Source: a bacterium (GTDB lineage: Bacteria; Patescibacteriota; Minisyncoccia; Moranbacterales; DUUL01). From it: a stretch of 64,000 nt of DNA. The notes under the pieces are model-generated. The model was not told the DNA's origin and did no database searches. It saw nothing but the letters and a program-made list of their open reading frames with translations. A program made the position numbers and the translations under genes. Location: the NCBI GenBank assembly GCA_018675685.1, contig JABGXP010000014.1, positions 81,288-145,287 of the forward strand, written 5' to 3'. Positions 27,951 to 60,507 of the stretch are shown piece after piece. Each line of letters starts with the position of its first letter. Position 1 is the stretch's first letter.

Positions 27951-30650
27951 CTAAAGTGAGATCCTTAGAATATCACCATTTTTAGTGCTAATAAATGCTC
28001 GATCCTGTTTTTCATTGACCCAGAAGTGTTCAGCATCTATGAATTTTTCACTGAATTTTTTCACTGTCTCCGATTGATTGCTCTTTAAAATCTTCATAAG
28101 AACCCCGTTTTTTGAGTCCAAAGAATATATATTACTTGGTTGAGACCTAGTTTCGATATCGACAATTCTTGTCTCTTCATAATCATCATTTTTTGCAGAG
28201 AAAGAAGTTTTTAATTTTCCTTCAAAGTATTGTTGAATTTCTCCGTTTTCAGATGCCACCAAAAGTGAATCATCAACCGCTAAGTCAATTGCTGCTGAAA
28301 AGAATTGTTGGTTCGGTATCCTGATTTTATAATTATGAAAACCTCCTGGTTTGCGAGGAAATTGATAGATATTCTTTGAATTATTATCAAGAATATAAAG
28401 ATATTGGAGATAAACCCCAGCTCCTCCAATGGCAAGATTGTTAGGGAGTTTAATATCAACATCTGTAAAGCGATTTGTTACGGGGCTATAAGAAAAAACA
28501 CGCTTTTCTGAAATAAGGAAGACCAGTCTAAGGGTCGGCATAGATACAAGTGTTTTGGTTTCTTTCATATCATTCTTAAGAGGGACTTCTTTCAAATTAT
28601 TATTGGTGATGTCTAATCGGAAGAATTTTCCTGAAGCTGTGAGGATGAATAATTCGTCCTTATCTCCAGTTAAAGCTTTAATCTCCTCATTAACAGCTGC
28701 TATTGTTGTTGTTTCTGTCTCACTTTCGGAACCTCCTCTTTTTTGATCATTTATTATCTCGGTAGTTGAGGTTTCATTGAAAGCTTTATTTCCAATTAAT
28801 TTAGACAAAAATGAGAATAAGAAAATCAACGCCAAGAGAGAAATCGTGCCTATAAGAATTATTTTTTTGTATTTTCTTGTAAGCAAAACAAACTTTCTCT
28901 TGAGTCTCCCCAAATCTTTTTGTTTTGAGATTGCTATAACAGAGGTAATTGAACTCGTCATGGCATCTCGAAAAGAAGTTTTTATTTGTGTATCAGTTGG
29001 TTTTGTACTTTCGCTGGCAATGTTATTTCCCTTCCCGATTCTCTTCTCTCCAGAGACAAGAGAATTAATCTTAGCATGCATAGCTGTGTAGAGCTCCTTG
29101 ATTTTTTCTGTCAATTTAAGGAATATAGACTTTAGCTCATTCAGAATCCTTTGAAAATCAATTAAATCAAGTTTCTCTTTCACTTTTTTTAAATAGACGC
29201 CAATGGTTCTTCGAACACTCTTGGCTTGTTTTTCTTTAAATGTAGACTCTTCTTTTTTTCGTATCTCTCCATTTTTTACACGCATAAACTCTCTTTCTTT
29301 ACGAATCGTTTCTTTTTCTGCCTCCATTTTTTCTTGCTCCTCTAGTTCTTTCGATGGTTCAATGGGGTAGGATATGCTGTTATTGAAAGAGAGGTCTTTT
29401 ATGTTGTCATCTGATTTCCCAAGCTTAATTTTCGAAATTAAAGGGATTGAACTTGCTGAAATATTGTTATTTTTTTTCAAATCCTCAAGAGTTTTTTTGG
29501 CTTTATTTAAAATAGAATTAAAGCTCTTCTCATTGGTGTCGTCAATTTCCTTCATTTCAAGAACTTCTTTATTCCCATCAGCTTCTTTAATAAAAAGTTC
29601 CGGTTGCTCTTCAAACGGAGAAATAGGAGATGATCCCACAGTTTTGTTTTTTTGTTCCGTAGGCGCAGTTGGTTTGTTCGGAATATTCACTGCCCCTTTC
29701 TTTGCCTTTTTAGACAATTCTATTTCTCCGTCTCTTGTCTTTTTTGGTATTAATGAGGAGATTGGGGCCTCTGTCGTGATACTAACTTCTTTGTCTTTGG
29801 TATTTTTAGTCTCCTGTTCTATGTTTTTTAGTGAGCGGCATCTTTTGCCTAGAGAGGTCTTTGGAGTGAACGCTTCACTTTCTCCAAAAAAATTAAGCTT
29901 TGCGAGATCTTTTTCTTTTGGAGCCGAAGTCACGCTTTTCTCTTTGATGTTAGTGATAACAACCCCCACATCCTCTCCCTCTAAGTCCAAAGTTGATTTG
30001 AGAATATTATCAAATTCACTGGAAGTAAAGGTTTTTGTGTGGCGAGTGATTTCCTCCCAAGAAAGGGAGTCAAAAAGTTTCTTTGTTGAAAAAATAAGTT
30101 TATCTCCAATTGAGAGTTCACCATAAGAAATATCAGAAAATGTTTTCACAGGGTGCACGTTTTTTTCCTCATTTAACCCCTTTGATATTTCAGCAATTTT
30201 TTTATTCTTGGAGAGAAAAATTTGTCCATTCCCAAGCTTAGTAAAATGGAGTTCATTTCCGCTGATAACTCCAATAACAGCATCTAAATTATTGATCCAG
30301 TTTGTTATTTCATGTTGAGCAAGATCCTCTAATGCCAGGTTGATCTTATTAAGGGCACTTCCAAAACTTTCCTCTGTTCCCCTGTTTGGTTTTAAGAAGA
30401 ATTCTCGCTTAATCACCTGGGAAAGAAGATTCGGAAGATAGGCGGATCCTTCTGAGTTGTCATTACTTCTGATTATACCAAAAAGGTCTCCCAATTTACG
30501 TTGGGCTGGATTCTCTCCCTCAAAATGAAAAGTGTTTGAAAATGGTTGCAAAGCTTTATCTTTACAGACCGCCACCAAGAAGGAATCTAATTCAATTTCA
30601 ATTTTAGATTTTTTTTCTTTAATATTGTTGTGCATAGCAAAATATTTCAA
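27951..30650 (-). CDS. large (899 aa) membrane protein with an N-terminal cytoplasmic domain, a low-complexity/coiled-coil linker, one TM, and an extracytoplasmic beta-rich domain
   Basis: Long intact ORF with a TM at IILIGTISLLALIFLFSFL, a K/E-rich coiled-coil middle section, and a repetitive beta-strand-like C-terminus. Confidence 0.5.
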   Translation of the reverse strand: MKYFAMHNNIKEKKSKIEIELDSFLVAVCKDKALQPFSNTFHFEGENPAQRKLGDLFGIIRSNDNSEGSAYLPNLLSQVIKREFFLKPNRGTEESFGSALNKINLALEDLAQHEITNWINNLDAVIGVISGNELHFTKLGNGQIFLSKNKKIAEISKGLNEEKNVHPVKTFSDISYGELSIGDKLIFSTKKLFDSLSWEEITRHTKTFTSSEFDNILKSTLDLEGEDVGVVITNIKEKSVTSAPKEKDLAKLNFFGESEAFTPKTSLGKRCRSLKNIEQETKNTKDKEVSITTEAPISSLIPKKTRDGEIELSKKAKKGAVNIPNKPTAPTEQKNKTVGSSPISPFEEQPELFIKEADGNKEVLEMKEIDDTNEKSFNSILNKAKKTLEDLKKNNNISASSIPLISKIKLGKSDDNIKDLSFNNSISYPIEPSKELEEQEKMEAEKETIRKEREFMRVKNGEIRKKEESTFKEKQAKSVRRTIGVYLKKVKEKLDLIDFQRILNELKSIFLKLTEKIKELYTAMHAKINSLVSGEKRIGKGNNIASESTKPTDTQIKTSFRDAMTSSITSVIAISKQKDLGRLKRKFVLLTRKYKKIILIGTISLLALIFLFSFLSKLIGNKAFNETSTTEIINDQKRGGSESETETTTIAAVNEEIKALTGDKDELFILTASGKFFRLDITNNNLKEVPLKNDMKETKTLVSMPTLRLVFLISEKRVFSYSPVTNRFTDVDIKLPNNLAIGGAGVYLQYLYILDNNSKNIYQFPRKPGGFHNYKIRIPNQQFFSAAIDLAVDDSLLVASENGEIQQYFEGKLKTSFSAKNDDYEETRIVDIETRSQPSNIYSLDSKNGVLMKILKSNQSETVKKFSEKFIDAEHFWVNEKQDRAFISTKNGDILRISL

Positions 30651-35747: not shown

Positions 35748-36450
35748 ATGATGGGGGGCAATCAAGAACGTGTTTGGAAACCAGTTTTTGAAATCGACAC
35801 AAGTAAAGAACCTTTTTTAACTCAAAGGATGCCAAAACCAGGAGTCTTGCATGAACTTTTTCGTTTGATGTTAAACCTAAGAGTAGTTCATTACGTTACT
35901 GATGATTTTTTGGAAGAATACAGTCCATCATTGGCAATGTTGGCAAAGGTTGAAGTTAGCAGGGGTTTCAATGTCTTTGTTAAAAAAAATTACCAGCAAG
36001 AAAAGAGTTGCAGAAACACTCAGACTTTTGCGGAAAGGAGTTATTGCTAAAGCAGTCTTTGAAGCCGATGGGTACTTCCAGGATGTCTCGTTCTGCTTTG
36101 GGTCATTTTGTTTTCACGCTGGACCTGATGATATGGATGGACGGGAAAAGGTGCTTGCAAACGACATCAAAATCTTTGACGGAGTGGAGATTGTCTTTGA
36201 TTACGAGCGTTGGAAGAACGGATCCCATTTGTCATGGGGCGTTGAACTTTCCTTTGGGTGGGCAAACACTCTTGAACTTGGGTGTAAAGGCTCAATACGA
36301 GCAGATTCAAGGGAAGATACCATCAATGCATTGTTGGCGTATCTGAAAGAGGGGAAGAAGCACATTAAACCTCGCTTTCAAAAGGATCGCAAAAAACTGA
36401 TTGAGGCATTGAATCGGTTCGGGGATTCATATTGGTATTTCAAAATTTGA
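35748..36450 (+). pseudogene. unknown-function gene (~234 aa if intact) interrupted by a frameshift at an A8 homopolymer (35982-35989); GC-richer than its surroundings
   Basis: Track ORFs 35748..36050 (frame 0) and 35902..36450 (frame +1) overlap. Deleting one A from the A8 run fuses them into one continuous ORF (..SRGFNVFVKK/ITSKKRVAETL..). A GGGGGTG Shine-Dalgarno lies 7 nt upstream of ATG 35748. Confidence 0.5.
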
Positions 36451-51646: not shown

Positions 51647-52606
51647 TCAAGTTGTGCTTTTTCTTCCTAGCATTTCAAGGAGAGAGGGGAGTGCAAAGTG
51701 AACGACAATTCCAATTCCAATAGCTGAAAGTGGCACCCAGTAGAGCGCGTGACAATTTTCAAGGAGATACCAAGTTGCAACGAGAGCCGTTACTCCTGCA
51801 GTATCAAACTTCCAACCATAATCGCTGAGTTCTACATGTTTCCAGGTATTAGCAATAAGAGCTATTGCCAAAACGATAAGCGCTAGTACCCACGGCAACT
51901 TTTTTGTATTTTCGCAAGTAGTTGATGTCCCCTTAACATCTCCAGCATTTTCTGATCCTGCTCCTTCCTCGGAAATTATTGGTGTGTTTTCGCCGAGAAC
52001 TTCAGCCTCTTCTTCTGGTAAGTTCTCTGTTAGACCAAGCACGCGTCCTTGGTCAGTAAGAATATCTTCCTCGGTTTCATCTTCTGTTGCTACGCGTGAT
52101 TCTATTTCAAATTCAATATCAAATTTTGCTTCTAAGTTTTGATATTCATTACCAGCATCTTCATCGAATTTTATTTTAATGCGATATTCTTTGCCTTTTG
52201 TAGCGCTCAGACGGTCCATGTATAACTCTTCTTCATCTGCCTTTTTCAAGTCATAGCGGTCCCCTGGTCCGCCAATCCGATAACTCCCATTCTCAACCCT
52301 GATAACATATAGTTTCAATTCTTCTGCTAATTTCTTGTCACCCTTAAGGTCAATAGTAAAAAATAAATTAATATCATCTGTTTCGCTGTCATTTTCCACT
52401 CTAATAGTTTTCTTTTCTTGCCAACCAGGCAGGATGTTAGTGAAATCGAAAATAGCACTTTCATTTAAATTTGTTCCCACTGGATATTCAACATCGATTT
52501 TGTCATCTGCCCAAGCAATGTTTGTGAAAAAAACTCCACTAAAAAGCAAGCTTATTGTAAGTAAGAAGAATTTTTTCAGTCCAAATTTTATACCATCTTT
52601 TTTCAT
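51647..52606 (-). CDS. TasA/camelysin-like secreted protein with a C-terminal multi-TM membrane anchor
   Basis: Signal peptide, then a TasA-like domain (ILPGWQEKKTIRVEN; AGNEYQNLEAKFDIEFEIE, paralleling NAGNEYQGDQMTFNIELY in the 55591 gene). An acidic linker and 2-3 hydrophobic helices follow at the C-terminus. Its start overlaps the upstream gene's stop by 4 nt. Confidence 0.45.
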   Translation of the reverse strand: MKKDGIKFGLKKFFLLTISLLFSGVFFTNIAWADDKIDVEYPVGTNLNESAIFDFTNILPGWQEKKTIRVENDSETDDINLFFTIDLKGDKKLAEELKLYVIRVENGSYRIGGPGDRYDLKKADEEELYMDRLSATKGKEYRIKIKFDEDAGNEYQNLEAKFDIEFEIESRVATEDETEEDILTDQGRVLGLTENLPEEEAEVLGENTPIISEEGAGSENAGDVKGTSTTCENTKKLPWVLALIVLAIALIANTWKHVELSDYGWKFDTAGVTALVATWYLLENCHALYWVPLSAIGIGIVVHFALPSLLEMLGRKSTT

Positions 52607-54948
52607 GCCAATATGTTATTGATAATTAACATTACTATTTCTCCCAGATCATTCTCTTCCTCTTTTTTTTCTTCTTCCTTTAACTCTTCTTTTTCTTCTG
52701 ACTCTTCTTCTTTAATCGCTTCTAGTTCTACTTGTTCCTCTTTGGGTTCCTCAGATGTTTCGTTTTCTGCTTCCTCTGCTTTCTCGTCTTTTAATTCAGG
52801 GGTTTCATTGTTAGCTGATTCTTCTTCTACACTTTCCAATTTCTCTTCTTCTGGGGCTACCTCCTCTGCAATTTCTGGTATCGAGTCTTCTTCTTTGGAG
52901 TTTTCATTATTTAAATCAGAATCCTTGTCGTCAGTTTGGTTTTCTTCACTCTCAATAGAAGACTCTTCGCCCGAATCTTCTTCAGGTAGTTCAACTTGCT
53001 CAGTATCGGTTTGCTTTATGTTTTCTTCTTGGGCCTGATCAGTTTCTCCTTTAGAAGTATCCTCCCCTTTAATGGCATCGAGGAAAACTTCATCGCCATC
53101 TTCCTTTTTTTCATCTTCGTCTTCTTCTTGCGATTCCAAAGCAATTTCTGCTAGGATTTCGCGATAAACATCTTTGGGCATTTCATCATCATTTTCATCA
53201 TCTAAAAGACCCAAGTATTCCAAGAAAACTCCCTTGCAAAATGGATGTTCTTCCTCTCTGTCGAAATCTCTTTTGTCGAAACATTCTTCCAGAACTATTG
53301 CTTGATAATAATCTTTTTCATCGCTAGAGAGTTTGTTTTCTTTGCCTAAGCGAGGATTTGGGTCAACAAAAGGACCAACACCATCTGGGATTCGTTGAAA
53401 CGCTTTATTTTCAAAGAAATCGCTTGGCTTTTGATAATCATAGTGATCATTTTCAATTTCAACACTGCCATAACGAGCAATCAGATATAATTCACCGTTG
53501 TTGTTATTATCAAAGAATTCAGCTGGATTAAATTGTCCGTCTGCATACACAACTAGATCATCGCCAGCTGGAACAATGGTCTCACCACTATCTGAAGGGT
53601 TGTCATCATTGTCGCCGTTGGAAGTCGAAATAATAATTTCATCTCCGTCTTTATTGGCAATGATCCAACCAGCCACATCCCAGTCCTTGTCATCATTATT
53701 CCAAAGTTCAATCACTTCACCATTTGGCATTGGCGCTACGTCACTTCCAGATGGATTTGCCACAAACTCATTTAAAACTATTGGCAAGAGGTTTTGTCCA
53801 CCAGGCGTGCCATAGTTATTGATTTCATCTTCCCAAAAGTCAGTATCATTAGCAGCTGGGTGATTTGTCGTGAACCAATTTTTAGCATCCGTGCCATCTC
53901 CTGGGAGAGGCATTCTTTGCATTGAACGATAATCCGAACCATTTTCTCCTGCTGGCCAAGCTGAATCTTTCCAGGCGACGTCAACTGTTGTACCAGCTTT
54001 GTTTGCAAGTAAAAGTCCCTCGCCGTCATTGTGGAGACTCACATTTGATTTATGGGTGATTCCTTTATCAGAGTCTAGATTGCTGGAGAGGCCAATAGCT
54101 GTTTCATTCCATTTTTTTCTCAAGATCAAGAAATATCCATTAGCTTTGATGCTATATCCATGTGGAATTTCTAGGTGTGCCATTGCCCCTGCGCCATGGC
54201 CAAGACCATGAACATTCCAATTTGAAAGGTCAATCTCTTTGTCTGTCATGTTGCGAAGTTCAATCCATTCGTCAGAACTTCCTTCTTCTGATCCCATCCA
54301 CATAATCTCGTTGATAACAACAGCTTGGCTAGCTGACCACTGGTCGGAAGTAACACGGTTACTCGTAGTTTCAATATCAGAAAAGCCATCAGCTCCATGG
54401 GTCGAACCTGTTTGCCAAGCTTCAAATTTAAAATCAAAATCACAAACTTTATCAGCCAGGGAAGGATTGCCATCAGTTAATTTAACGGTAAAGTTCCAAG
54501 TTTCTTTTGAAATATTTTGTGTACTCGAAAAAAGATAGTCAGCTAATTTTTGATAGGTATTTGTTTGATCGTCTTTGATTTCCAATTTTTCACAAAGATC
54601 TAAGTCGCCAGAAAGATTTGTAGTTGAAACTTTGTAATTAAAATCCAGTATCCCGAGTTTTGAAAGCGAAACAGATTTAGAAGTTTCTGTGGAGGGTGAA
54701 ACTTTGGGAGAGAAACTGTCGTCGGAAGGAATGGAAAAGTCTAGAGTGGAAGCGCCCAGAGTGTTATTTGCGCCCTCTTCTTTGTCTGAAAAACTAGCAT
54801 TAGTGCCCCCAGGAAAATTCAGTGAAAAAGAAAAAACTGATATCAAAAGACAAATTCCCACTTTTTTGAGCGAGCTTAGGATTCTTCTTGTGATAACTGA
54901 TTTATATCTCCTTTTCTTCTTTGACATCGTCTTTTTTAGTATTATCAT
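52603..54948 (-). CDS. large secreted protein with a SipW-cognate (TasA-type) signal peptide, a TasA-like N-terminal domain, two lamin-tail domains (LTD), and a ~250-aa acidic tail
   Basis: Signal region ...VFSFSLNFPGGTNASFSDKEEGANNTLGASTLDFS carries the AxFSDxE motif. LTD signatures VVINEIMWMGSEEGSSDEWIELRNMTDKEIDLSNW and VLNEFVANPSGSD..GEVIELWNNDDKDWDVAGW are present. The E/D-rich C-terminus ends in a short hydrophobic LGEIVMLIINNILA. An alternative start MSKKK lies at 54927. Confidence 0.6.
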   Translation of the reverse strand: MIILKKTMSKKKRRYKSVITRRILSSLKKVGICLLISVFSFSLNFPGGTNASFSDKEEGANNTLGASTLDFSIPSDDSFSPKVSPSTETSKSVSLSKLGILDFNYKVSTTNLSGDLDLCEKLEIKDDQTNTYQKLADYLFSSTQNISKETWNFTVKLTDGNPSLADKVCDFDFKFEAWQTGSTHGADGFSDIETTSNRVTSDQWSASQAVVINEIMWMGSEEGSSDEWIELRNMTDKEIDLSNWNVHGLGHGAGAMAHLEIPHGYSIKANGYFLILRKKWNETAIGLSSNLDSDKGITHKSNVSLHNDGEGLLLANKAGTTVDVAWKDSAWPAGENGSDYRSMQRMPLPGDGTDAKNWFTTNHPAANDTDFWEDEINNYGTPGGQNLLPIVLNEFVANPSGSDVAPMPNGEVIELWNNDDKDWDVAGWIIANKDGDEIIISTSNGDNDDNPSDSGETIVPAGDDLVVYADGQFNPAEFFDNNNNGELYLIARYGSVEIENDHYDYQKPSDFFENKAFQRIPDGVGPFVDPNPRLGKENKLSSDEKDYYQAIVLEECFDKRDFDREEEHPFCKGVFLEYLGLLDDENDDEMPKDVYREILAEIALESQEEDEDEKKEDGDEVFLDAIKGEDTSKGETDQAQEENIKQTDTEQVELPEEDSGEESSIESEENQTDDKDSDLNNENSKEEDSIPEIAEEVAPEEEKLESVEEESANNETPELKDEKAEEAENETSEEPKEEQVELEAIKEEESEEKEELKEEEKKEEENDLGEIVMLIINNILA

Positions 54949-55495
54949 TCTCTAATTCATCTGCTTTGCGTTTTTTTGTTCTTCTTCGATAATCAAGTTT
55001 TTTCAATATTTCTTTCTTGATGGTCAAAATTTCATCATAGATAATAATAACTGCGGGAACAATGATGATTAGAACAAAACCAATCGGTTTTTGCGCAGCA
55101 TTCACGGCATATCCTAAAAATGGAACAGAGAAGAGCACTTTTCCAATAACTTCATTTTTTGAGACTTGTTTGTGGTCTTTCGCATTATTAGCATCTCCTT
55201 TAGTGATGTATTTTTCGATATCGTCATTTTTTTCTATGGCTGTGATTCTATGTGTGGTCGGTGTTTTCATTTTGGAGGACTCTCCAAAAGTGATCACATC
55301 ACCAACTTGATAATTTTCAGCTGGTTTTGTGGCTACTATGCTTCCTGTGCGAATTTTTGGTTCCATTGAGCCAGAAAGCACGATAAATGATTTATAACCA
55401 CCTTTTATGGGAATAGCAGACAGAACTAAAAAAACGGCAATAATTGCAATTGCAAGGATAAATAGGTAATAGAAAGTTTTGAAGATTTTTTTCAT
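54902..55495 (-). CDS. sipW: signal peptidase I, archaeal/ER type (SipW-like)
   Basis: N-terminal TM then SGSMEP (catalytic Ser box) ...GDVITF, with a second TM and a basic tail. This is the typical size and architecture of SipW-type SPases. Confidence 0.7.
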   Translation of the reverse strand: MKKIFKTFYYLFILAIAIIAVFLVLSAIPIKGGYKSFIVLSGSMEPKIRTGSIVATKPAENYQVGDVITFGESSKMKTPTTHRITAIEKNDDIEKYITKGDANNAKDHKQVSKNEVIGKVLFSVPFLGYAVNAAQKPIGFVLIIIVPAVIIIYDEILTIKKEILKKLDYRRRTKKRKADELENDNTKKDDVKEEKEI

Positions 55496-55590
55496 TAGAG
55501 GTGTGTTTCTTGGTAGTTGCTTGTTTAAAAACAGGAATAGTTAACTTATTGACTGCCCGAGAGTTCAGGCAGTCTAAAGTCAACTAACTA

Positions 55591-56643
55591 TTAGTAAGAA
55601 CTAACTATTAGTAAGTCAGTATCTTCATACCAAATCAAACCAGTCTCCCAGAGCCATTTGTCCATTTGAGTCCATTGAATAGCTCCATCATTCCATGCAG
55701 TCTTTGGGAGCAACCAAACCTTAACATCTTTCATGTCTTTTCCAAGCTCCATATCTCCGGTGAAATTGATATCACCACTTCCGTTTGATATGCTTTCTCC
55801 TAGGTATGTATCAACATTAGTACCACCATCATATCCAGCAGCTAATACATACGTTGTGTTAGGCAAAGCAACTTTTCCGTCAAATTCAAAATCAAAAGTT
55901 GGATTTTTAACTTCATAGGTTAGTGTGCCTTTGAAATCATCATCTTGAAGCACGTTCCAAGGTCCAGAAGTGTCTTTATTTTCTAGCCAAGCCTCCCCAT
56001 GAAGTTGTTCAGCATAGAGCTCAATGTTGAAAGTCATTTGATCACCTTGATATTCGTTGCCAGCGTTTTCATTCATGTGATAGCTTTGTCTAACTTGCAT
56101 GTAGCCATTAGCAGGAATCATTCCTAAGAACACTTTTTTAGCACCAGCATAGACATCATCAAGAGTTTTACCTTCTGAATCAAGGTAGAGGGTTTGTTCC
56201 CAGATAGGAGTATTACTTGAATCGTATACTTCAACGTATAGATCATAAATAATAACACTAGAGAGATCATTATTGTCAGTTGCACCACCCCAAGAACAAG
56301 CATCATTACTCCAATTACCACCTTGGCCATCACATTCAGGCTCTGATACTACACCTGTTATTTCTACAATTTCGGTGATATCCTTCCAAACATTAACAGG
56401 GTTTGCACTCTCTCCCTCATTTTCAATTTCAAAGTTGATATAATCGATATAATCTGGTTTCATGTCATCCATGGCGAAGCTTTCACTCCAAGGATTCATG
56501 TTATTTACTGAAATATCAATTGTTCCAGCAGTGAAAGTGTTGCCGACTGATTTTTCTTCATCTGAAAAATAGGCTACCGTACCACCGATTGCTACTGCTG
56601 CAACGGCTGTGATAACCATTAAACTTTTTAAAATCTTTTTCAT
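55591..56643 (-). CDS. TasA/camelysin-family secreted protein with a SipW-cognate signal peptide
   Basis: The N-terminus MKKILKSLMVITAVAAVAIGGTVAYFSDEEKSVGNTFTAGTIDIS is the hallmark SipW-cognate class signal (AYFSDxE). A camelysin-like beta-rich body follows. Confidence 0.7.
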   Translation of the reverse strand: MKKILKSLMVITAVAAVAIGGTVAYFSDEEKSVGNTFTAGTIDISVNNMNPWSESFAMDDMKPDYIDYINFEIENEGESANPVNVWKDITEIVEITGVVSEPECDGQGGNWSNDACSWGGATDNNDLSSVIIYDLYVEVYDSSNTPIWEQTLYLDSEGKTLDDVYAGAKKVFLGMIPANGYMQVRQSYHMNENAGNEYQGDQMTFNIELYAEQLHGEAWLENKDTSGPWNVLQDDDFKGTLTYEVKNPTFDFEFDGKVALPNTTYVLAAGYDGGTNVDTYLGESISNGSGDINFTGDMELGKDMKDVKVWLLPKTAWNDGAIQWTQMDKWLWETGLIWYEDTDLLIVSSY

Positions 56644-57035: not shown

Positions 57036-57061
57036 CCCTGTTTTTAGGGCAAAAAACAGGG
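57036..57061. other. perfect 10-bp hairpin CCCTGTTTTT-agggc-AAAAACAGGG in the long 5' intergenic region
   Basis: Seen directly in the sequence. A TTGACA (57095-57100) lies ~35 nt downstream. Confidence 0.3.
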
Positions 57062-57225
57062 GGATTCCTTTTTCCGAAAAAATGTTAAATCTAATTGACA
57101 TTTCCTGGTATTTATGTTCAAATTAATGAGCAGAAAATTATCTGGTAACAGTTTTTTTACAAAAAGCACGAAAAAGCAGTTAAACAAAAAACCTAGACTA
57201 GGCTATTTCCAAAGGAGAAAGGTTC

Positions 57226-57741
57226 ATGAAAAATAGAAGAGAAGAAAGAAGATTGTTGAGAGAAGAAGGTCTCCCAATTGAAAGAATGAGAATCATCGAC
57301 ACAGCAGAGACGTTGGATTTGCAAATCAAAGAATTTCTGGGTTGTCATGTATCCGTGAGTGGTTGTGGTTCTTCGAAAGAGCAGACACTGGATCTCTCAT
57401 TGGTGAGAGAGTTTGTCGGAGCAATTCCGGTTGCCAACGTTTTGTTCGAAGCACCTCGCTTTGCATGGACCAATGAGGAAGATGATATTCCTGTCAGGGC
57501 GATTGTTCTGGAAGTTTTGGCTGGTAGCAAAGGAGATGACCTTCTGAATGGCATTTTCGATGATGTTGGCATGATCTTTGAGGATATTCGTTTTTTGAAC
57601 TTTCTCTCAGTTATCCAAGCGACGTTGTCGCCAGTGTTTCCAGTTTGTGAGCTGGAGGTTTTGCTGAAAATGATTAATGATTTCAAAAAAAGTCCGGTGA
57701 TCCAAAAATCAGACATGGGGGATGAAAATATCAATGAATAG
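57226..57741 (+). CDS. hypothetical protein (171 aa), the first gene of a GC-richer island
   Basis: Intact ORF preceded by an AAAGGAGAAAGG Shine-Dalgarno. Its local GC content is visibly higher than that of the flanking genes. Confidence 0.4.
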   Translation: MKNRREERRLLREEGLPIERMRIIDTAETLDLQIKEFLGCHVSVSGCGSSKEQTLDLSLVREFVGAIPVANVLFEAPRFAWTNEEDDIPVRAIVLEVLAGSKGDDLLNGIFDDVGMIFEDIRFLNFLSVIQATLSPVFPVCELEVLLKMINDFKKSPVIQKSDMGDENINE

Positions 57742-57971
57742 CTCCTTTTGTCGAATAGTTCGTTCTATTGAATGTTTGCGAGGTGTCTAGTGGAAAATTC
57801 CGCTGGACACCTTTTTTTGAATAATTTTTGTCGATTTTCATTGACAAAAGTAACAAAATCATGTATGGTTATTGGAATGATCCAAATCTCTTTTGAGTCA
57901 AGGTCATTTGCTAGTTCTTCGTCAATTTGGAATTTTAGAAAAAAACTTTTTAATTTTTTTGGAGGTAAGTC

Positions 57972-58367
57972 TTGAAAGAAGAGCATGGAAGGATAAATGT
58001 TTTAATCGTGGATAGCGAGGAAGATGATGCTATAATTCTCGATATCAGAAAGTTGATCATCAATTTACATCAAAAACAAGGGAGCAAAAAAGAGCTAGCT
58101 ATTAGCTTAATTGATAGCCAAGTGAATCTTTTTGCACATCATTTAGAGTTTGATTTTCAAATTGTTATTCTGTTAAACAACAATGAAAAAAGCGATTTGA
58201 TTTTTCAATATCTAAATGGGTTTTTTTCTGGCAAGGCAAAGTTTATTGTCATTGGCCCTGAAATTGAAACTGCGGCTAAGCACGCGAAGTTTGAAGGTGC
58301 TTGGGTTGTTTCAAACACCTTTAATGAAGTGATCCCACAGTTCGAAACATTGATGGGAGAGAAGTAG
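57972..58367 (+). CDS. stand-alone receiver (CheY-like REC)-like domain protein, probably degenerate
   Basis: INVLIVDSEEDD (acidic pocket) .. LAISLIDS (candidate acceptor-Asp position) .. FIVIGPEIETAAK .. GAWVVSNTF, spaced as beta-alpha units like a receiver domain. Confidence 0.4.
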   Translation: MKEEHGRINVLIVDSEEDDAIILDIRKLIINLHQKQGSKKELAISLIDSQVNLFAHHLEFDFQIVILLNNNEKSDLIFQYLNGFFSGKAKFIVIGPEIETAAKHAKFEGAWVVSNTFNEVIPQFETLMGEK

Positions 58368-58426
58368 TTTAAACGGTCAATCAGCAAAGTAAACTGCAAA
58401 GGTTTACTGAAGATGGGGAGGATGCT

Positions 58427-58603
58427 ATGGACAGATATCTTGACCCAGAAATACGACAAAGGCGCAGAAACAAACTAGTAAGTGGCAAGTGCACTGTTTG
58501 TTCAAATGACGCTGCAATTCCTTGGAAGCAACATCAATATTGTTACGACTGCTGGGTAATTGCAGAGGTTTATTTCATGAAAGAACTGCGGAATGAAAAA
58601 TAA
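58427..58603 (+). CDS. unlisted 58-aa ORF encoding a CxxC..CxxC zinc-ribbon-like peptide (MDRYLDPEIRQRRRNKLVSGKCTVCSNDAAIPWKQHQYCYDCWVIAEVYFMKELRNEK)
   Basis: Translated by hand from ATG 58427 to TAA 58601-58603. It is below the 60-aa cutoff of the track and fills the gap between two island genes. Confidence 0.3.
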   Translation: MDRYLDPEIRQRRRNKLVSGKCTVCSNDAAIPWKQHQYCYDCWVIAEVYFMKELRNEK

Positions 58604-58653
58604 GGAGAGCGAAAGATTAATTTAACCTATCAATCAGCAAAGGTGGTAAGAAG

Positions 58654-59619
58654 ATGGAGAAAAGAAAAAAAGGAGATAAAAAACCAGAGAATGTAAGAAT
58701 CATTTTTGTTTCTGCTGTCTGCGGAAAAGAACCAGAGCTCATGACCAGTTTTCTTGAAGAGTTTGATTCTTTCGCGAAGAAGCAGGACAAAAAAACTTTT
58801 GTCTTGATTTTCTGCGGAAAAGCAAGCGACCCAAGCAAGCTTTTGCGAAAGGCTGACATTCTGGTAACTGATCCCGTGATCACTTGGGGTGGAAGAAAGA
58901 CATTCCTTCCTCAGCTAGGTTCTGCCAACGATGAGCGCGAGAATGGAAAACGCAGAATCATTATCGTTCTTCCAAGAAAGAAGGATGAAAGAAATAAATT
59001 CTTTGCTGACCCCCGGTGTTTTGCAAAGACATTGATGCCAAATGTGGAGCATCCTCGGAAAGTTGAAAAAATCTCGCATATTCCTTTGAATGGCAAGACT
59101 CTGGAAAAAATCGAAGATGAAGTCATTTTCGAACTACCAGAACATTGTTCAGCCCCGAGAGTGATGATCGCACTTTCTAATTCTTTTGAAATGATTGAAG
59201 CGAAAAAACTGAAGGAGACAATTGAGGCACAATTTGCCCTTGAGGTGATGGTGGTTCCTTGGAAAAGCTTCCGAGCTTCAATGGCCGCCGAAGCGGATGT
59301 TTTGATTACTAGCACTGTTCAACAGCTCGATAGACTCCCAACACCTGCAAGAGTTCCCACTAATAGGCACAATGGTAGAAACAACAAGTTTGTCGAATCA
59401 AAAGTTCACACCTATCAAAACTTGGCGCATGTTGACATGTCCAAGAAGGCTAATCCAGCCCTGCAGGTTGTTCTTTTGGGAAGGGAAGTGACAGCGTTCA
59501 TTGTTCGTTATGCGGACATCCTATCCGGCTTCTTAGAGTTTCCGCCAACAAAGGCTTCTTTGTCAGCAGCTTTACAAAGAGCAGCTTTGAAAAGCGAAAA
59601 ATCAGTTCTTATCAATTAG
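58654..59619 (+). CDS. hypothetical protein (321 aa) with two internally similar alpha/beta (receiver/flavodoxin-like) halves
   Basis: Repeat of the pattern R[IV]...S......F.....(V/I)L..........AD(I/V)L(V/I)T(D/S) at residues ~15-73 and ~168-220. An AGGTGG Shine-Dalgarno is present. Confidence 0.4.
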   Translation: MEKRKKGDKKPENVRIIFVSAVCGKEPELMTSFLEEFDSFAKKQDKKTFVLIFCGKASDPSKLLRKADILVTDPVITWGGRKTFLPQLGSANDERENGKRRIIIVLPRKKDERNKFFADPRCFAKTLMPNVEHPRKVEKISHIPLNGKTLEKIEDEVIFELPEHCSAPRVMIALSNSFEMIEAKKLKETIEAQFALEVMVVPWKSFRASMAAEADVLITSTVQQLDRLPTPARVPTNRHNGRNNKFVESKVHTYQNLAHVDMSKKANPALQVVLLGREVTAFIVRYADILSGFLEFPPTKASLSAALQRAALKSEKSVLIN

Positions 59620-59686
59620 GAAAATATCAAGTACATCAGGCTTAATTCTAAAGCAAGTTCTAAAACTAAAGTTTCAAAAAATGATT

Positions 59687-59726
59687 GAGGCATGCAGGAA
59701 ATTTTTCCTTCGCATGCCTCTTTTTG
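59687..59726 (+). terminator. strong intrinsic terminator closing the island
   Basis: GAGGCATGCAGGAAA-tt-TTTCCTTCGCATGCCTC followed by TTTTT. Confidence 0.6.
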
Positions 59727-59898
59727 TCAATTAAAGTTGACGTTTTAGCTAGAATATGCTAAAAAGAAATATTATACTTTTCAAAAAGAGATTACTTTTA
59801 TTTTCAATGAATATTTCGATTTGCTAGTCGCCGGGAAGCAAATTGATTTTGTAAGAAGATTTGTTAGAATGGTTTTGCATTACAAGTAATATGACTTT

Positions 59899-60507
59899 AT
59901 GGAGCTTAAAGAGTATTTAAAAGTTTTGAAGAAATACAAAACAACCTTTGTTGTCATCTGGGTTGGAGCGATTGCTTTTGGATTGATTGCAGCGTCTCTT
60001 GTTCCACAGAGATACAAAACGACTTTTTCAATTGATATCACAAGAGATACGCAGGAAGAAGGAACTCAGGAATATGACTTTGATCAATTCTATCGTTTAG
60101 AAGCAGACGATCGATTCGGCAGGACAATTGTAGAATGGTTTAGTGATGGTGCAATTGTAAACAACATTCACGCTGTCGCAAGAAGCGTGGAAGAGAATTT
60201 TGAAAATGAAGAACTCGAAACGAAATTTAAAGCAAAAAAGCTCGCAAATAGCTATTTGAGGGTTAGCTTCTTGGTTTCAGAGAAAAAAGAAGTAAAACCA
60301 CTTTTTCTGGGAGTGAAAAAAGTTCTAAATGAGAAAACCAAGGAGTTTAATGGCGGTTTCAATAAACAAAGCAGCTTTAAGCTCATTTTTAATGGACCAA
60401 CTATTGCAAATGCTACAATTCCACTTACCCCACTACTTATCAGTTTGATTGGCAGTGGTTTTTTCTTGGCAGCATTCGGGATTATGTTTAGAAAGTATCT
60501 AGAATAA
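59899..60507 (+). CDS. Wzz/YveK-like polysaccharide chain-length determinant protein (short form)
   Basis: N-terminal ELKEYLKVLKKYKTTFVVIWVGAIAFGLIAASLV (Wzz N-terminal motif plus TM1) and a C-terminal TM (LISLIGSGFFLAAFGIMF). Confidence 0.5.
   Translation: MELKEYLKVLKKYKTTFVVIWVGAIAFGLIAASLVPQRYKTTFSIDITRDTQEEGTQEYDFDQFYRLEADDRFGRTIVEWFSDGAIVNNIHAVARSVEENFENEELETKFKAKKLANSYLRVSFLVSEKKEVKPLFLGVKKVLNEKTKEFNGGFNKQSSFKLIFNGPTIANATIPLTPLLISLIGSGFFLAAFGIMFRKYLE

What the first reader, a model, noticed from the sequence alone, without database searches (positions are those of the whole stretch)
57226..59726. GC-richer four-gene island of unknown function with receiver-like folds, bounded by a hairpin/promoter and a strong terminator
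The 2.4-kb block between the TasA locus and the polysaccharide genes has visibly higher GC than its surroundings (~45% versus ~35% by eye). All four plus-strand genes lack recognisable family motifs. They are a 171-aa protein, a stand-alone CheY-like receiver-like domain (131 aa), an unlisted 58-aa zinc-ribbon peptide, and a 321-aa protein built from two internally similar alpha/beta halves ending in AD(I/V)L(V/I)T. A 13-nt exact repeat TCAATCAGCAAAG precedes two of the genes (58377-58389 and 58630-58642). There is no integrase or transposase. This could be a horizontally acquired signalling or regulatory module, or a novel small system.
Basis: partly seen in the sequence, partly recalled or inferred. 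Interest (0 to 1): 0.55.

Follow-up and report, generated by a model that had tools for sequence, protein, structure and literature searches.

The report
Fast-evolving receiver-fold gene pair, not island
The block is not a horizontally acquired four-gene island: it is an inherited but very fast-evolving stretch whose core is two unannotated genes for proteins with a CheY/receiver-like fold that lack most phosphorylation residues, found only in a few related uncultivated marine bacteria and always sitting just upstream of a conserved cell-envelope polysaccharide gene cluster.

Summary
All four + strand ORFs exist. None matches any Pfam, NCBIfam, PADLOC or PHROGs family.

The GC rise is real but small: 39.8% against 36.5% for the window, not 45 against 35. 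GC3 is 0.36-0.42 against 0.31±0.04.

The block is not one unit. Strong terminator hairpins follow the 171-aa gene and the 321-aa gene, giving [171] and [131-58-321], followed by the polysaccharide cluster with its own promoter.

An exhaustive search of 1.84 billion cluster representatives found only four distant relatives of the 321-aa protein. In three other species it follows a 131-aa homologue and lies directly upstream of the Wzz-like/GT4/GT4/DUF4012 cluster. In a fifth species it precedes a ManC-like gene. The pair was therefore inherited in place.

The pair evolves much faster than its neighbours: 20-35% identity against 66-85% for flanking genes. Its raised GC3 is shared by the orthologues.

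The 58-aa zinc-ribbon ORF is a species-specific insert bracketed by an imperfect 25-nt direct repeat.

Moderate-confidence AlphaFold models match receiver domains best. In p131 an invariant Asn replaces the acceptor Asp. p321 is a tandem, PleD-like.

Most likely these are phosphorylation-independent receiver-fold adaptors or regulators linked to envelope glycan synthesis. Their function is inferred, not shown.

The parts
57095..57123 (+). Promoter-like site for the 171-aa gene: TTGACA (57095-57100), 17-nt spacer, TGt-TCAAAT (57115-57123).
   Evidence: Read from the sequence. The stretch from TTGACA through the leader CAGTTTTTTTACAAA is conserved in L007, upstream of a different first gene. It was not listed by the consensus scan, because position 2 of the -10 hexamer is C. 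Function is inferred.
57226..57741 (+). p171: acidic (net charge -12), soluble 171-aa protein, monocistronic. It belongs to the variable segment between the TasA cluster and the conserved pair.
   Evidence: ORF. No family hit. It finds only itself among 5.8 billion proteins. Residues 19-78 are 39% identical to residues 27-88 of the 346-aa protein at the syntenic place in L007. GC3 is 0.415. It has no TM segment.
57780..57820 (+). Intrinsic-terminator-like hairpin (15-bp stem) plus T7 run, ending the p171 unit.
   Evidence: Terminator scan. RNA fold gives dG -25.4 kcal/mol and z -6.9, with 0 of 200 shuffles as stable.
57841..57869 (+). Promoter-like site TTGACA-17-TATGGT for the p131-p58-p321 operon.
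   Evidence: Consensus scan, 10 of 12 positions matched. Function is inferred.
57972..58367 (+). p131: single (beta-alpha)5 receiver-fold domain. Asp14 is invariant at the end of beta1. Asn69 is invariant where receivers carry the phospho-acceptor Asp. Gly95 stands in place of the beta4 Thr/Ser, and there is no beta5 Lys.
   Evidence: It finds only itself in the 5.8-billion-protein search. Homologues lie directly upstream of the p321 homologue in L007 (E 8e-15), L011 (9e-8) and L013 (profile E 2.5e-9). Invariant columns come from the alignment. AF2 model: pLDDT 72, pTM 0.69. Best Foldseek PDB matches are REC domains with TM 0.6-0.7, but E >= 5e-3. There is no sequence-level match to Response_reg.
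58365..58389 (+). Copy 1 of the imperfect 25-nt direct repeat. It contains the exact 13-mer at 58377-58389 and starts at the p131 stop codon.
   Evidence: the repeat finder family D2, 21/25 identical, spacing 253 nt. The 13-mer occurs only twice in the window. A 21/25 match was reached by 1 of 100 shuffles. The repeat is absent from the relatives.
58427..58603 (+). p58: 58-aa basic ORF with two CxxC pairs (C22/C25, C39/C42), a putative zinc ribbon. It is a species-specific insert between p131 and p321.
   Evidence: ORF with a GGGGAGGA Shine-Dalgarno. NCBI names it HN784_03710, and its cluster holds 2 near-identical members. No homologue appears in any related locus or on viral contigs. In the relatives the p131 and p321 homologues are separated by 9 nt (L007), overlap by 4 nt (L011) or are separated by 54 nt (L013).
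58618..58642 (+). Copy 2 of the 25-nt direct repeat (exact 13-mer at 58630-58642), 11 nt upstream of the p321 start codon.
58654..59619 (+). p321: basic (net charge +14) protein with tandem receiver-fold domains.
- The N-domain (about residues 14-132) is a (beta-alpha)4 unit. Its invariant residues are S20, D68, D73 (at the end of beta3), G79, P107, R113 and F117.
- A low-confidence linker spans residues 135-165.
- The C-domain (about residues 170-319) is a (beta-alpha)5 unit with no Asp at the acceptor position. It carries an R/K-rich disordered insert at 223-253 and an invariant Pro297 in the beta5 loop.
   Evidence: The exhaustive HMMER search found 4 distant homologues among 1.84 billion representatives. 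Alignment. AF2 model: pLDDT 63.8, pTM 0.43. Foldseek PDB top hits are PleD REC-REC (7e-7), RcsC, the CpaE N-domain and CheY (TMt 0.75). BFVD top hits are multi-REC histidine kinases (1e-9). The N-domain is duplicated in P0004. N versus C profile comparison gives E 0.02, in register. The C-domain beta4-alpha5 region aligns in register with CheY, with P297 on P110, at E 0.055.
59687..59725 (+). Intrinsic-terminator-like hairpin plus T-run, ending the p131-p58-p321 operon.
   Evidence: RNA fold gives dG -21.4 and z -4.7. Equivalent GC-rich hairpins with T-runs follow the p321 homologues in L007, L011 and L013.
59737..59765 (+). Conserved promoter-like element of the downstream polysaccharide cluster: TTGACG, 17-nt spacer, TGc-TAAAAA. 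It is context, not part of the block, but it defines the block's 3' boundary.
   Evidence: Aligned and conserved in the window, L007, L011 and L013.
59899..60507 (+). Context: the 202-aa two-TM Wzz-like protein, first gene of the conserved cluster (Wzz-like, GT4, GT4, DUF4012, spermine-synthase-like).
   Evidence: Pfam Wzz E 5e-5. It is 66-69% identical among the four species. DUF4012 is CPR-enriched and found in capsule/EPS loci (PMC6744442).

Best explanation
**What the block is**
It is a vertically inherited, rapidly diverging stretch of a small-genome uncultivated marine bacterium (probably candidate phyla radiation; inference). It lies between a TasA/SipW/LTD surface-protein cluster and a conserved envelope-polysaccharide cluster.

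It has three parts:
1. A variable monocistronic gene, p171.
2. An operon whose conserved core is the gene pair p131-p321.
3. p58, a small zinc-ribbon ORF that entered between the pair in this species only. It is bracketed by a 25-nt imperfect duplication of the old p131/p321 junction.

**What the proteins look like**
p131 is a single receiver-fold domain. p321 is a tandem of receiver-fold domains.
- The residues that make a receiver phosphorylatable are mostly gone. p131 has an invariant Asn for the acceptor Asp. The p321 C-domain has Ser, Thr, Asn or Gly at that position. Neither has the beta4 Thr/Ser or the beta5 Lys.
- Only the p321 N-domain keeps an invariant Asp (D73) at the end of beta3. 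It sits in a pocket with unusual invariant Ser, Pro and Arg residues.

**Most likely mechanism (inferred)**
These are phosphorylation-independent pseudo-receiver adaptors or regulators that work by protein-protein contact. Acidic p131 and basic p321 may form a complex. They probably act on the cytoplasmic side of envelope glycan synthesis or assembly encoded next door.

**Shown versus inferred**
- Shown: gene anatomy, transcription-unit signals, restricted distribution, conserved position, fast divergence and fold-level resemblance.
- Inferred: the pseudo-receiver mode of action, complex formation and the link to polysaccharide synthesis.
For: **Distribution**
- Each protein finds only itself among 5.8 billion proteins.
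- The exhaustive HMMER search gives only 4 distant p321 relatives.

**Conserved position**
- In L007, L011/L012 and L013 the p321 homologue lies directly upstream of the Wzz-like/GT4/GT4/DUF4012 cluster and directly downstream of a p131 homologue.
- L007 also keeps the LTD-SipW-TasA genes on the other side.
- In L009 the p321 homologue precedes a ManC-type sugar-nucleotide gene.

**Rate of evolution**
- p131 is 20-35% identical between species and p321 is 23-29%. The flanking Wzz-like, GT4 and GT4 genes are 66-85% identical.

**Composition**
- GC3 is modestly raised in this genome and equally raised in the orthologues of three other species.

**Transcription units**
- Terminators follow p171 and p321.
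- The terminator and promoter between p321 and the Wzz-like gene are conserved in four species.

**Fold**
- AF2 models match receiver domains and tandem-receiver proteins best in two libraries.

**Residues**
- Invariant columns are listed.
- Pro297 of the C-domain aligns with CheY Pro110.

**The p58 insert**
- It is absent from the relatives, and the flanking repeat is at chance level about 0.01.

**Localisation**
- None of the four proteins has a TM segment.
Against: - Model confidence is only moderate: pLDDT 64 and 72, built from 4-5 sequences.
- The Foldseek E-values for p131 are weak (>= 5e-3), and other flavodoxin-like folds (NrdI, type II dehydroquinase) score similarly.
- Profile comparisons with Response_reg-type sequences are not significant. 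Homology to receivers is therefore not demonstrated; only fold resemblance is.
- The pair is not co-transcribed with the polysaccharide cluster, because a terminator and a separate promoter lie between them.
- The functional link rests on conserved adjacency in only four or five related species, which could simply be inherited synteny.
- The invariant Asp73 of the p321 N-domain leaves room for phosphorylation or catalysis.
- There is no expression or protein-level evidence.
Confidence: 0.5

Rival explanations
1. This is a horizontally acquired four-gene island that brings in a foreign signalling or regulatory module.
For: - Block GC lies in the top 0.3% of equal-sized windows.
- GC3 of p171 and p321 is about 2.8 sd above the window's genes, and their codon-usage likelihood is the lowest or near-lowest.
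- The proteins have no relatives in other lineages.
Against: - The p131-p321 pair sits at the same site in three other species whose flanking genes are only 66-85% identical.
- The orthologues share the raised GC3.
- There is no integrase, transposase, tRNA or island-bounding repeat.
- There are no viral relatives.
- The block splits into two transcription units.
- An ancient acquisition by the clade's ancestor cannot be excluded, but it has no donor signal.
Confidence: 0.06
2. This is a genuine phospho-signalling module. The p321 N-domain is phosphorylated on Asp73, by a distant kinase or a small phosphodonor, and relays the signal through its C-domain and p131, much as PleD or a CheY-like single-domain regulator would.
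For: - Asp73 is invariant and sits at the end of beta3, the topological position of the receiver acceptor Asp.
- The best structural match is PleD, a tandem receiver protein.
Against: - The beta1 acidic residues are replaced by an invariant Ser20, and the beta4 Thr/Ser and beta5 Lys are absent. The N-domain has only four strands.
- p131 and the C-domain lack the Asp altogether.
- There is no Pfam Response_reg match.
- No canonical receiver was detected in the 64-kb window with a home-made REC profile, and no kinase appears among the neighbours' Pfam hits within about 10 kb.
Confidence: 0.1
3. The domains are not regulators. They are divergent Rossmann- or flavodoxin-like ligand-binding or catalytic domains of the glycan pathway. 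One example would be a degenerate GT-B glycosyltransferase, occupying the slot that a GT4 holds upstream of the Wzz-like gene in more distant relatives. Another would be a sugar-phosphate or nucleotide binder that uses the Ser20/Asp73/Arg113 pocket.
For: - In distant Wzz-like loci the gene directly upstream is a GT4 of 366-393 aa, preceded by a Bac_transf gene.
- p321 has two alpha/beta domains of suitable size.
- The invariant polar residues cluster at the C-terminal ends of the strands, where such folds bind ligands.
- GT-B proteins appear low in the BFVD list.
- A weak OTCase-like motif match was seen at E 0.2.
Against: - hhalign of the p321 family against the upstream GT4 alignment, and against the window's own GT4, gives probability 0.1%.
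- GT-B hits have Foldseek probabilities of 0.2-0.8, against 1.0 for receiver domains.
- There is no Walker, CX5R or EX7E motif (read from the alignment).
Confidence: 0.12
4. The genes belong to a hypervariable conflict or host-interaction region (anti-phage, anti-host or immunity function). Their position next to the polysaccharide cluster is only historical.
For: - Divergence is far faster than in the flanking genes.
- Gene content changes between species in the segment upstream of the pair.
- Domain duplication has occurred in P0004.
- A small ORF has been inserted in this species.
- The neighbouring surface-protein genes are themselves variable.
Against: - There is no PADLOC or PHROGs hit.
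- No nuclease, toxin or NTPase domain is present.
- The proteins are cytoplasmic with no secretion signal.
- The pair itself is stably retained in order and position.
Confidence: 0.12

Closest known systems
Response-regulator receiver (REC, CheY-like) domains, in particular pseudo-receivers and tandem-receiver proteins. Structures matched: PleD REC-REC' (1w25), the CpaE N-terminal receiver-like domain (4dad, 4n0p) and the RcsC C-terminus (2ayx).
   Same: - The predicted (beta-alpha)5 flavodoxin-like topology is shared, and REC domains are the best Foldseek matches in both PDB and BFVD.
- The tandem arrangement resembles PleD.
- p131 keeps the beta1 Asp, and the p321 C-domain keeps the beta5-loop Pro.
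- As in known pseudo-receivers, the acceptor Asp is replaced.
   Different: - There is no significant sequence or profile similarity to Response_reg.
- The acceptor Asp is missing in two of the three domains, and the Thr/Ser and Lys switch residues are missing in all three.
- The p321 N-domain has only four strands and its own invariant motifs (S-x-T after beta1, D-x-V-I-T-W-G-G-R after beta3, L-P-R-x4-R-x2-F-F after beta4).
- There is no output domain and no partner kinase nearby.
Cytoplasmic regulators encoded beside Wzz/PCP-type genes in capsule and EPS loci: BY-kinases (CpsD/Wzc) and LMW-PTP or PHP phosphatases (Wzb/CpsB).
   Same: - The genes lie next to a small two-TM Wzz-like protein and glycosyltransferases.
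- They encode small cytoplasmic alpha/beta proteins.
- A regulatory role is plausible.
   Different: - There is no Walker A/B, no tyrosine cluster and no CX5R motif (read from the alignments).
- There is no Pfam or NCBIfam hit.
- The pair is transcribed separately from the cluster.
GT4 (GT-B fold) glycosyltransferases that occupy the position upstream of the Wzz-like gene in distant relatives.
   Same: The position relative to the Wzz-like gene is the same, and the protein has two alpha/beta domains of about 320-390 aa in total.
   Different: The profile-profile comparison is negative, with probability 0.1%. Structural matches to GT-B proteins are much weaker than those to REC domains.

Membership tests
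Response regulator receiver domain (Pfam PF00072, CheY-like) | Significant sequence or profile match to the family | tested here: not met
   No Pfam hit at E <= 1 for p131, p321 or their homologues. hhalign against 7 canonical receivers gives probability <= 6%.
Response regulator receiver domain (Pfam PF00072, CheY-like) | (beta-alpha)5 fold with a parallel 2-1-3-4-5 sheet | tested here: met
   AF2 secondary-structure order is (beta-alpha)5 for p131 and for the p321 C-domain, and (beta-alpha)4 for the N-domain. REC domains are the top Foldseek matches. Models are of moderate confidence only, and strand order was not inspected directly.
Response regulator receiver domain (Pfam PF00072, CheY-like) | Phospho-acceptor Asp at the C-terminal end of beta3 | tested here: not met
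   p131 has an invariant Asn69. The p321 C-domain has Ser, Asn or Gly just after beta3, varying between homologues (Thr follows one residue later in the window protein). Only the p321 N-domain has an invariant Asp73 at this position.
Response regulator receiver domain (Pfam PF00072, CheY-like) | Acidic pair after beta1, Thr/Ser after beta4, Lys after beta5 | tested here: not met
   p131 has Asp14 (invariant), but Gly95 and Asn115 in place of the Thr/Ser and Lys. The p321 N-domain has Ser20 and Pro107 and lacks beta5. The C-domain has no acidic pair, no Thr/Ser and no Lys, and keeps only Pro297.
Response regulator receiver domain (Pfam PF00072, CheY-like) | Partner histidine kinase or phosphotransfer protein | tested here: inconclusive
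   None appears among the neighbours' Pfam hits within about 10 kb. A home-made REC profile found no canonical receiver in the 64-kb window. The rest of the genome was not available.
Genomic island (recent horizontal acquisition) | Atypical base composition or codon usage | tested here: inconclusive
   GC is +3.3 points and GC3 z-scores are 1.4-2.9. The same shift is seen in the orthologues of three other species.
Genomic island (recent horizontal acquisition) | Mobility genes, tRNA target or bounding repeats | tested here: not met
   No integrase or transposase, no tRNA in the window and no repeats bounding the block.
Genomic island (recent horizontal acquisition) | Absent from the same site in related genomes | tested here: not met
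   The p131-p321 pair is present at the same site in L007, L011/L012 and L013. Only p58 is absent there, and p171 is only partly conserved.
BY-kinase / LMW-PTP capsule regulators | Walker A/B and a C-terminal Tyr cluster (kinase); CX5R(S/T) loop (phosphatase) | tested here: not met
   No such conserved motifs appear in alignments A2 and A4, and p131 has no Cys at all. No Pfam or NCBIfam hit.
GT4 / GT-B glycosyltransferase | Profile similarity to GT4 and the EX7E C-terminal motif | tested here: not met
   hhalign probability is 0.1% against the syntenic GT4 alignment and against the window's own GT4. No Glycos_transf_1 hit.
Known anti-phage defence systems (PADLOC) / phage protein families (PHROGs) | Match to a system component model | tested here: not met
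   No PADLOC hit at all, and only PHROGs noise at E >= 0.018. No relatives on IMG/VR contigs.

The most novel reading that the evidence does not exclude
The p131-p321 pair could be a previously unrecognised, clade-specific receiver-fold control module that does not use phosphorylation. One version has the N-domain Ser20/Asp73/Arg113 pocket binding a small phosphorylated or nucleotide ligand. The module would gate envelope-polysaccharide production in an ultra-small, probably host-dependent marine bacterium. Its very fast evolution would then reflect adaptation of the cell surface to hosts or phages.
Probability: 0.12. Interest if true: 0.5.

Novelty: new variant of a known kind. Interest (0 to 1): 0.25.

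Why it matters
The result removes a false lead: there is no foreign island and no new multi-gene system. It also defines a tiny, unannotated family pair with receiver-like folds that stays anchored to a CPR-type envelope-polysaccharide locus while diverging about three times faster than its neighbours.

If these proteins do regulate surface glycan synthesis without phosphorylation, they would be one of the few regulatory handles known for the cell envelope of uncultivated ultra-small bacteria.

As it stands, this is ordinary genomic dark matter with a sensible fold assignment.

Tried and rejected
1. **Degenerate GT4.** The gene upstream of the Wzz-like gene in distant relatives is a GT4. hhalign of the p321 family against that GT4 alignment, and against the window's own GT4, gave probability 0.1%. 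Rejected.
2. **BY-kinase or LMW-PTP analogues of wzb/wzc.** No Walker or CX5R motifs and no family hits. Rejected.
3. **PTS-EIIB, TIR or flavodoxin-type phosphate-loop resemblances.** I noticed these by eye in beta1 and beta3 of the p321 N-domain. No Pfam support at E <= 1, and none appear among the top structural matches. Not pursued.
4. **Shared palindromic operator GTCAA-N6-TTGAC.** It occurs at all three promoters of the block. The window total is 5 against 3.4 expected, and similar sites precede unrelated genes such as ProRS in L007. These are probably just -35 boxes.
5. **The 13-mer as a regulatory motif.** It is absent from the relatives, and an exact 13-mer repeat is not unusual. It is better explained as a junction duplication around the p58 insert.
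6. **Phage or mobile origin.** No relatives on IMG/VR contigs. One alignment query could not be run because it had no conserved stretch.
7. **Population variation for selection tests.** The window and three other assemblies differ at 2 positions in 15 kb, so this is uninformative. Interspecies divergence is too deep for dN/dS.
8. **PDB sequence-profile searches.** Only noise, at E >= 0.05.
9. **Rfam and tRNA scans of the window.** Nothing found.
It was rerun after an exact look-up.
   - No structure-prediction quota was left for p171 or p58.

Full report
**1. What is in the sequence**

The region 57226-59619 carries four + strand ORFs:
- p171 at 57226-57741
- p131 at 57972-58367, with a TTG start preceded by GGAGGT
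- p58 at 58427-58603
- p321 at 58654-59619

None of them matches Pfam, NCBIfam, PADLOC or PHROGs beyond noise. Rfam and tRNA scans of the whole window are empty.

The neighbours are as follows:
- Upstream, on the - strand: ATP synthase genes, then a 319-aa gene, a lamin-tail-domain protein, a SipW-like peptidase and a TasA/camelysin-like protein.
- Downstream, on the + strand: a two-TM Wzz-like protein, two GT4 glycosyltransferases, a 1206-aa DUF4012 protein, a spermine-synthase-like protein and a class II aminoacyl-tRNA synthetase.

DUF4012 is a family enriched in candidate-phyla-radiation bacteria and is found in capsule/EPS loci (PMC6744442). The rest of the window is ordinary chromosome: PBP2, PriA, NrdD, DnaK, AcrB-like and MurG.

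**2. Composition**

Block GC is 39.8% against 36.5% for the window. The sd of equal-sized windows is 1.3%, and only 0.3% of windows are as high. The p131 gene, at 35.1%, is below the window average.

GC3 values for p171, p131, p58 and p321 are 0.415, 0.359, 0.362 and 0.408. The 45 other genes of the window average 0.311 ± 0.036. The codon-usage likelihoods of p171 and p321 are among the lowest in the window.

**3. Transcription signals**

Two strong hairpins, each followed by a T-run, sit after p171 and after p321:
- 57780-57813: dG -25.4, z -6.9
- 59687-59720: dG -21.4, z -4.7

A TTGACA-17-TATGGT site follows the first hairpin. Together these signals split the region into three units:
- [p171]
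- [p131-p58-p321]
- the polysaccharide cluster, with its own promoter (TTGACG-17-TGcTAAAAA, 59737-59765)

The weak 5' hairpin it noted (57036-57061, z -2.3) is not conserved in the nearest relative.

**4. Distribution**

- Against 5.8 billion proteins, each of p171, p131 and p321 finds only itself. The same locus occurs in many marine samples and differs from the window at 2 of 15,000 bases.
- An exhaustive HMMER pass over 1.84 billion cluster representatives found four distant p321 relatives: P0004 to P0007, E 4e-33 to 5e-4, 23-34% identity.
- No relatives occur on IMG/VR viral contigs.
- Profile HMMs of both families find nothing in 23 more distant Wzz-like loci or elsewhere in the window.

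**5. Synteny, the decisive result**

In L007, L011/L012 and L013 the p321 homologue lies directly upstream of the same cluster: the 202-aa Wzz-like gene, GT4, GT4 and DUF4012. In each case it is directly preceded by a p131 homologue:
- phmmer E 8e-15 in L007 and 9e-8 in L011
- family profile E 2.5e-9 in L013

L007 also keeps the LTD-SipW-TasA genes on the far side. In a fifth species (L009) the p321 homologue precedes a ManC-type nucleotidyl-transferase.

Identity between the window and these species is:

| Gene | Identity to L007 / L011 / L013 |
|---|---|
| p131 | 35 / 27 / 20% |
| p321 | 29 / 23 / 23% |
| Wzz-like | 67 / 69 / 66% |
| GT4 (382 aa) | 85 / 79 / 78% |
| GT4 (378 aa) | 77 / 76 / 78% |

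The orthologues, and the variable segment upstream of them, show the same raised GC and GC3 relative to the conserved cluster. The terminator after p321 and the promoter of the Wzz-like gene are conserved in all four species.

Three conclusions follow:
- The pair was inherited in place.
- It evolves far faster than its neighbours.
- Its composition is a property of the genes, not a mark of recent import.

**6. The variable parts**

*p171.* It has only one detectable relative, the N-terminal part of a 346-aa protein at the syntenic place in L007 (39% identity over 60 residues). The promoter and leader in front of it are conserved in L007, although the first gene there is different.

*p58.* It has no homologue anywhere. 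In the relatives the two conserved genes are separated by 9 nt or 54 nt, or overlap by 4 nt. In the window, p58 is bracketed by a 25-nt direct repeat, 21/25 identical and 253 nt apart. The first copy starts at the p131 stop codon, and the second ends 11 nt before the p321 start.

The exact 13-mer alone is not beyond chance: 101 of 500 shuffles contain some exact 13-mer repeat. The 21/25 repeat is unusual: 1 of 100 shuffles reaches it. The simplest reading is an insertion into the old p131/p321 junction, with duplication of that junction.

**7. Folds**

*p321.* The model was built from an alignment of 5 sequences (pLDDT 63.8, pTM 0.43). It shows:
- an N-terminal (beta-alpha)4 domain, residues 14-132
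- a low-confidence linker, residues 135-165
- a C-terminal (beta-alpha)5 domain, residues 170-319, with a disordered R/K-rich insert at 223-253

The best Foldseek matches are receiver proteins:
- PDB: PleD, a tandem receiver protein (E 7e-7), then RcsC, CpaE N-terminal receiver-like domains and CheY (TM normalised to target about 0.7).
- BFVD: multi-receiver histidine kinases (E 1e-9).

*p131.* The model was built from 4 sequences (pLDDT 72, pTM 0.69). It is a clean (beta-alpha)5 domain. Its best PDB matches are receiver domains at TM 0.6-0.7, but with weak E-values (>= 5e-3) and alongside other flavodoxin-like folds.

One suggestive point is that the C-domain's beta4-alpha5 region aligns in register with CheY, placing invariant Pro297 on Pro110 (E 0.055).

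*The two halves of p321.* They align in register around ADILVT and ADVLIT at only E 0.02. The N-domain is clearly duplicated in P0004, giving an N-N-C architecture.

**8. Active-site positions**

Positions were assigned by combining the alignments and the models.
- p131 keeps Asp14 after beta1. It has an invariant Asn69 where the acceptor Asp should be, Gly95 for the beta4 Thr/Ser, and no beta5 Lys.
- The p321 C-domain has no acceptor Asp and no Thr/Ser or Lys.
- The p321 N-domain has an invariant Asp73 at the end of beta3. Its other invariant residues are Ser20 after beta1, Pro107 after beta4, and Arg113 and Phe117 in the next helix. This pocket differs from a receiver's.

No canonical receiver was found in the window with a home-made profile. 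No kinase appears among the neighbours' Pfam hits.

All four proteins lack TM segments. p131 is acidic (net charge -7) and p321 is basic (+14).

**9. Interpretation**

The HGT-island reading fails. What remains is a clade-restricted, fast-evolving pair of receiver-fold proteins that have lost most phosphorylation chemistry.

The most likely role is as phosphorylation-independent adaptors or regulators, comparable to known pseudo-receivers and to the adaptor receiver of PleD. They may act as a p131-p321 complex and may act on the adjacent envelope-glycan machinery.

The association with that machinery rests on conserved adjacency in four species and a sugar-nucleotide neighbour in a fifth. It does not rest on co-transcription. 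It is an inference of low to moderate strength.

The following remain possible:
- a ligand-binding or catalytic role for the N-domain pocket
- real phosphorylation of Asp73
- a conflict or host-interaction role, suggested by the fast evolution

A degenerate-glycosyltransferase origin was tested and not supported.

**10. Verdict**

- This is a new, very small family pair within a known fold class.
- Interest is modest.

Noticed in passing
window 51647-56643 (- strand); L004, L005, L006, L007, L011: A cluster of a TasA/camelysin-like protein (350 aa), a SipW-like signal peptidase (197 aa, overlapping the next gene by 47 nt), a lamin-tail-domain protein (781 aa, with a long acidic tail) and a 319-aa protein with no family hit. 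The TasA-SipW(-LTD) core recurs in distant bacterial MAGs. A TasA-like plus SipW-like pair also occurs in an Archaeoglobus MAG (37% and 32% identity).
   Followed up: partly
window 59687-59775; L007 10600-10690; L011 11020-11100; L013 11063-11140: The terminator hairpin after p321 and the promoter-like element of the Wzz-like gene are conserved across four species whose intergenic DNA otherwise diverges. The conserved stretch reads TTTTGTCAATTTTTGTTGACGTT..TG..TAGAATATGCTAGAAAGGAATATTA (-35 TTGACG, 17 nt, extended -10).
   Followed up: partly
window 57095-57165; L007 about 6080-6150: The promoter-like site and leader (TTGACA ... TATGnTnAAAT ... CAGTTTTTTTACAAA) upstream of p171 are conserved in L007. 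There they precede a different first gene, a 162-aa protein absent from the window.
   Followed up: no
window 57084-57099, 57830-57845, 59726-59741; L010 130-145; L007 6074, 10648, 18806: GTCAA-N6-TTGAC-like palindromes overlap the -35 box of all three promoters in the block and lie upstream of the p321 homologue in L010. The window total (5) is not above expectation (3.4), and one such site precedes a tRNA-synthetase gene in L007. This is probably generic promoter architecture.
   Followed up: yes
window 35902-36450 (+): A 182-aa ORF with no Pfam hit is the strongest compositional outlier of the window. Its GC3 is 0.44, and its codon-usage likelihood is the lowest among the 45 background genes, though the p321 gene scores slightly lower still.
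   Followed up: no
window 27951-30650 (-) and 18496-20169 (-): Two large ORFs, 899 aa and 557 aa, have no Pfam match at E <= 1e-5.
   Followed up: no
L015, L019, L021, L025, L027, L029, L032, L034, L036 (upstream of the Wzz-like gene); L028 3954-4379; L035 5572-5988: In distant relatives of the Wzz-like gene (25-36% identity), the upstream genes are a conserved GT4 (about 367 aa) and a Bac_transf initiating transferase (about 471 aa). In two loci an RNase H/RVT_3-like gene sits there instead.
   Followed up: partly
L007 9119-10552 (P0004): The p321 homologue of this species has an extra copy of the N-domain (N-N-C, 477 aa). Two further small no-Pfam genes lie upstream: one of 160 aa, faintly similar to the p131 family at E about 0.005, and one of 162 aa. 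This suggests local expansion of these domains.
   Followed up: partly
window 57326: The only difference in the block between the window and three other assemblies of the same organism lies in p171. P0002 is 99% identical to p171, so the change is non-synonymous.
   Followed up: no
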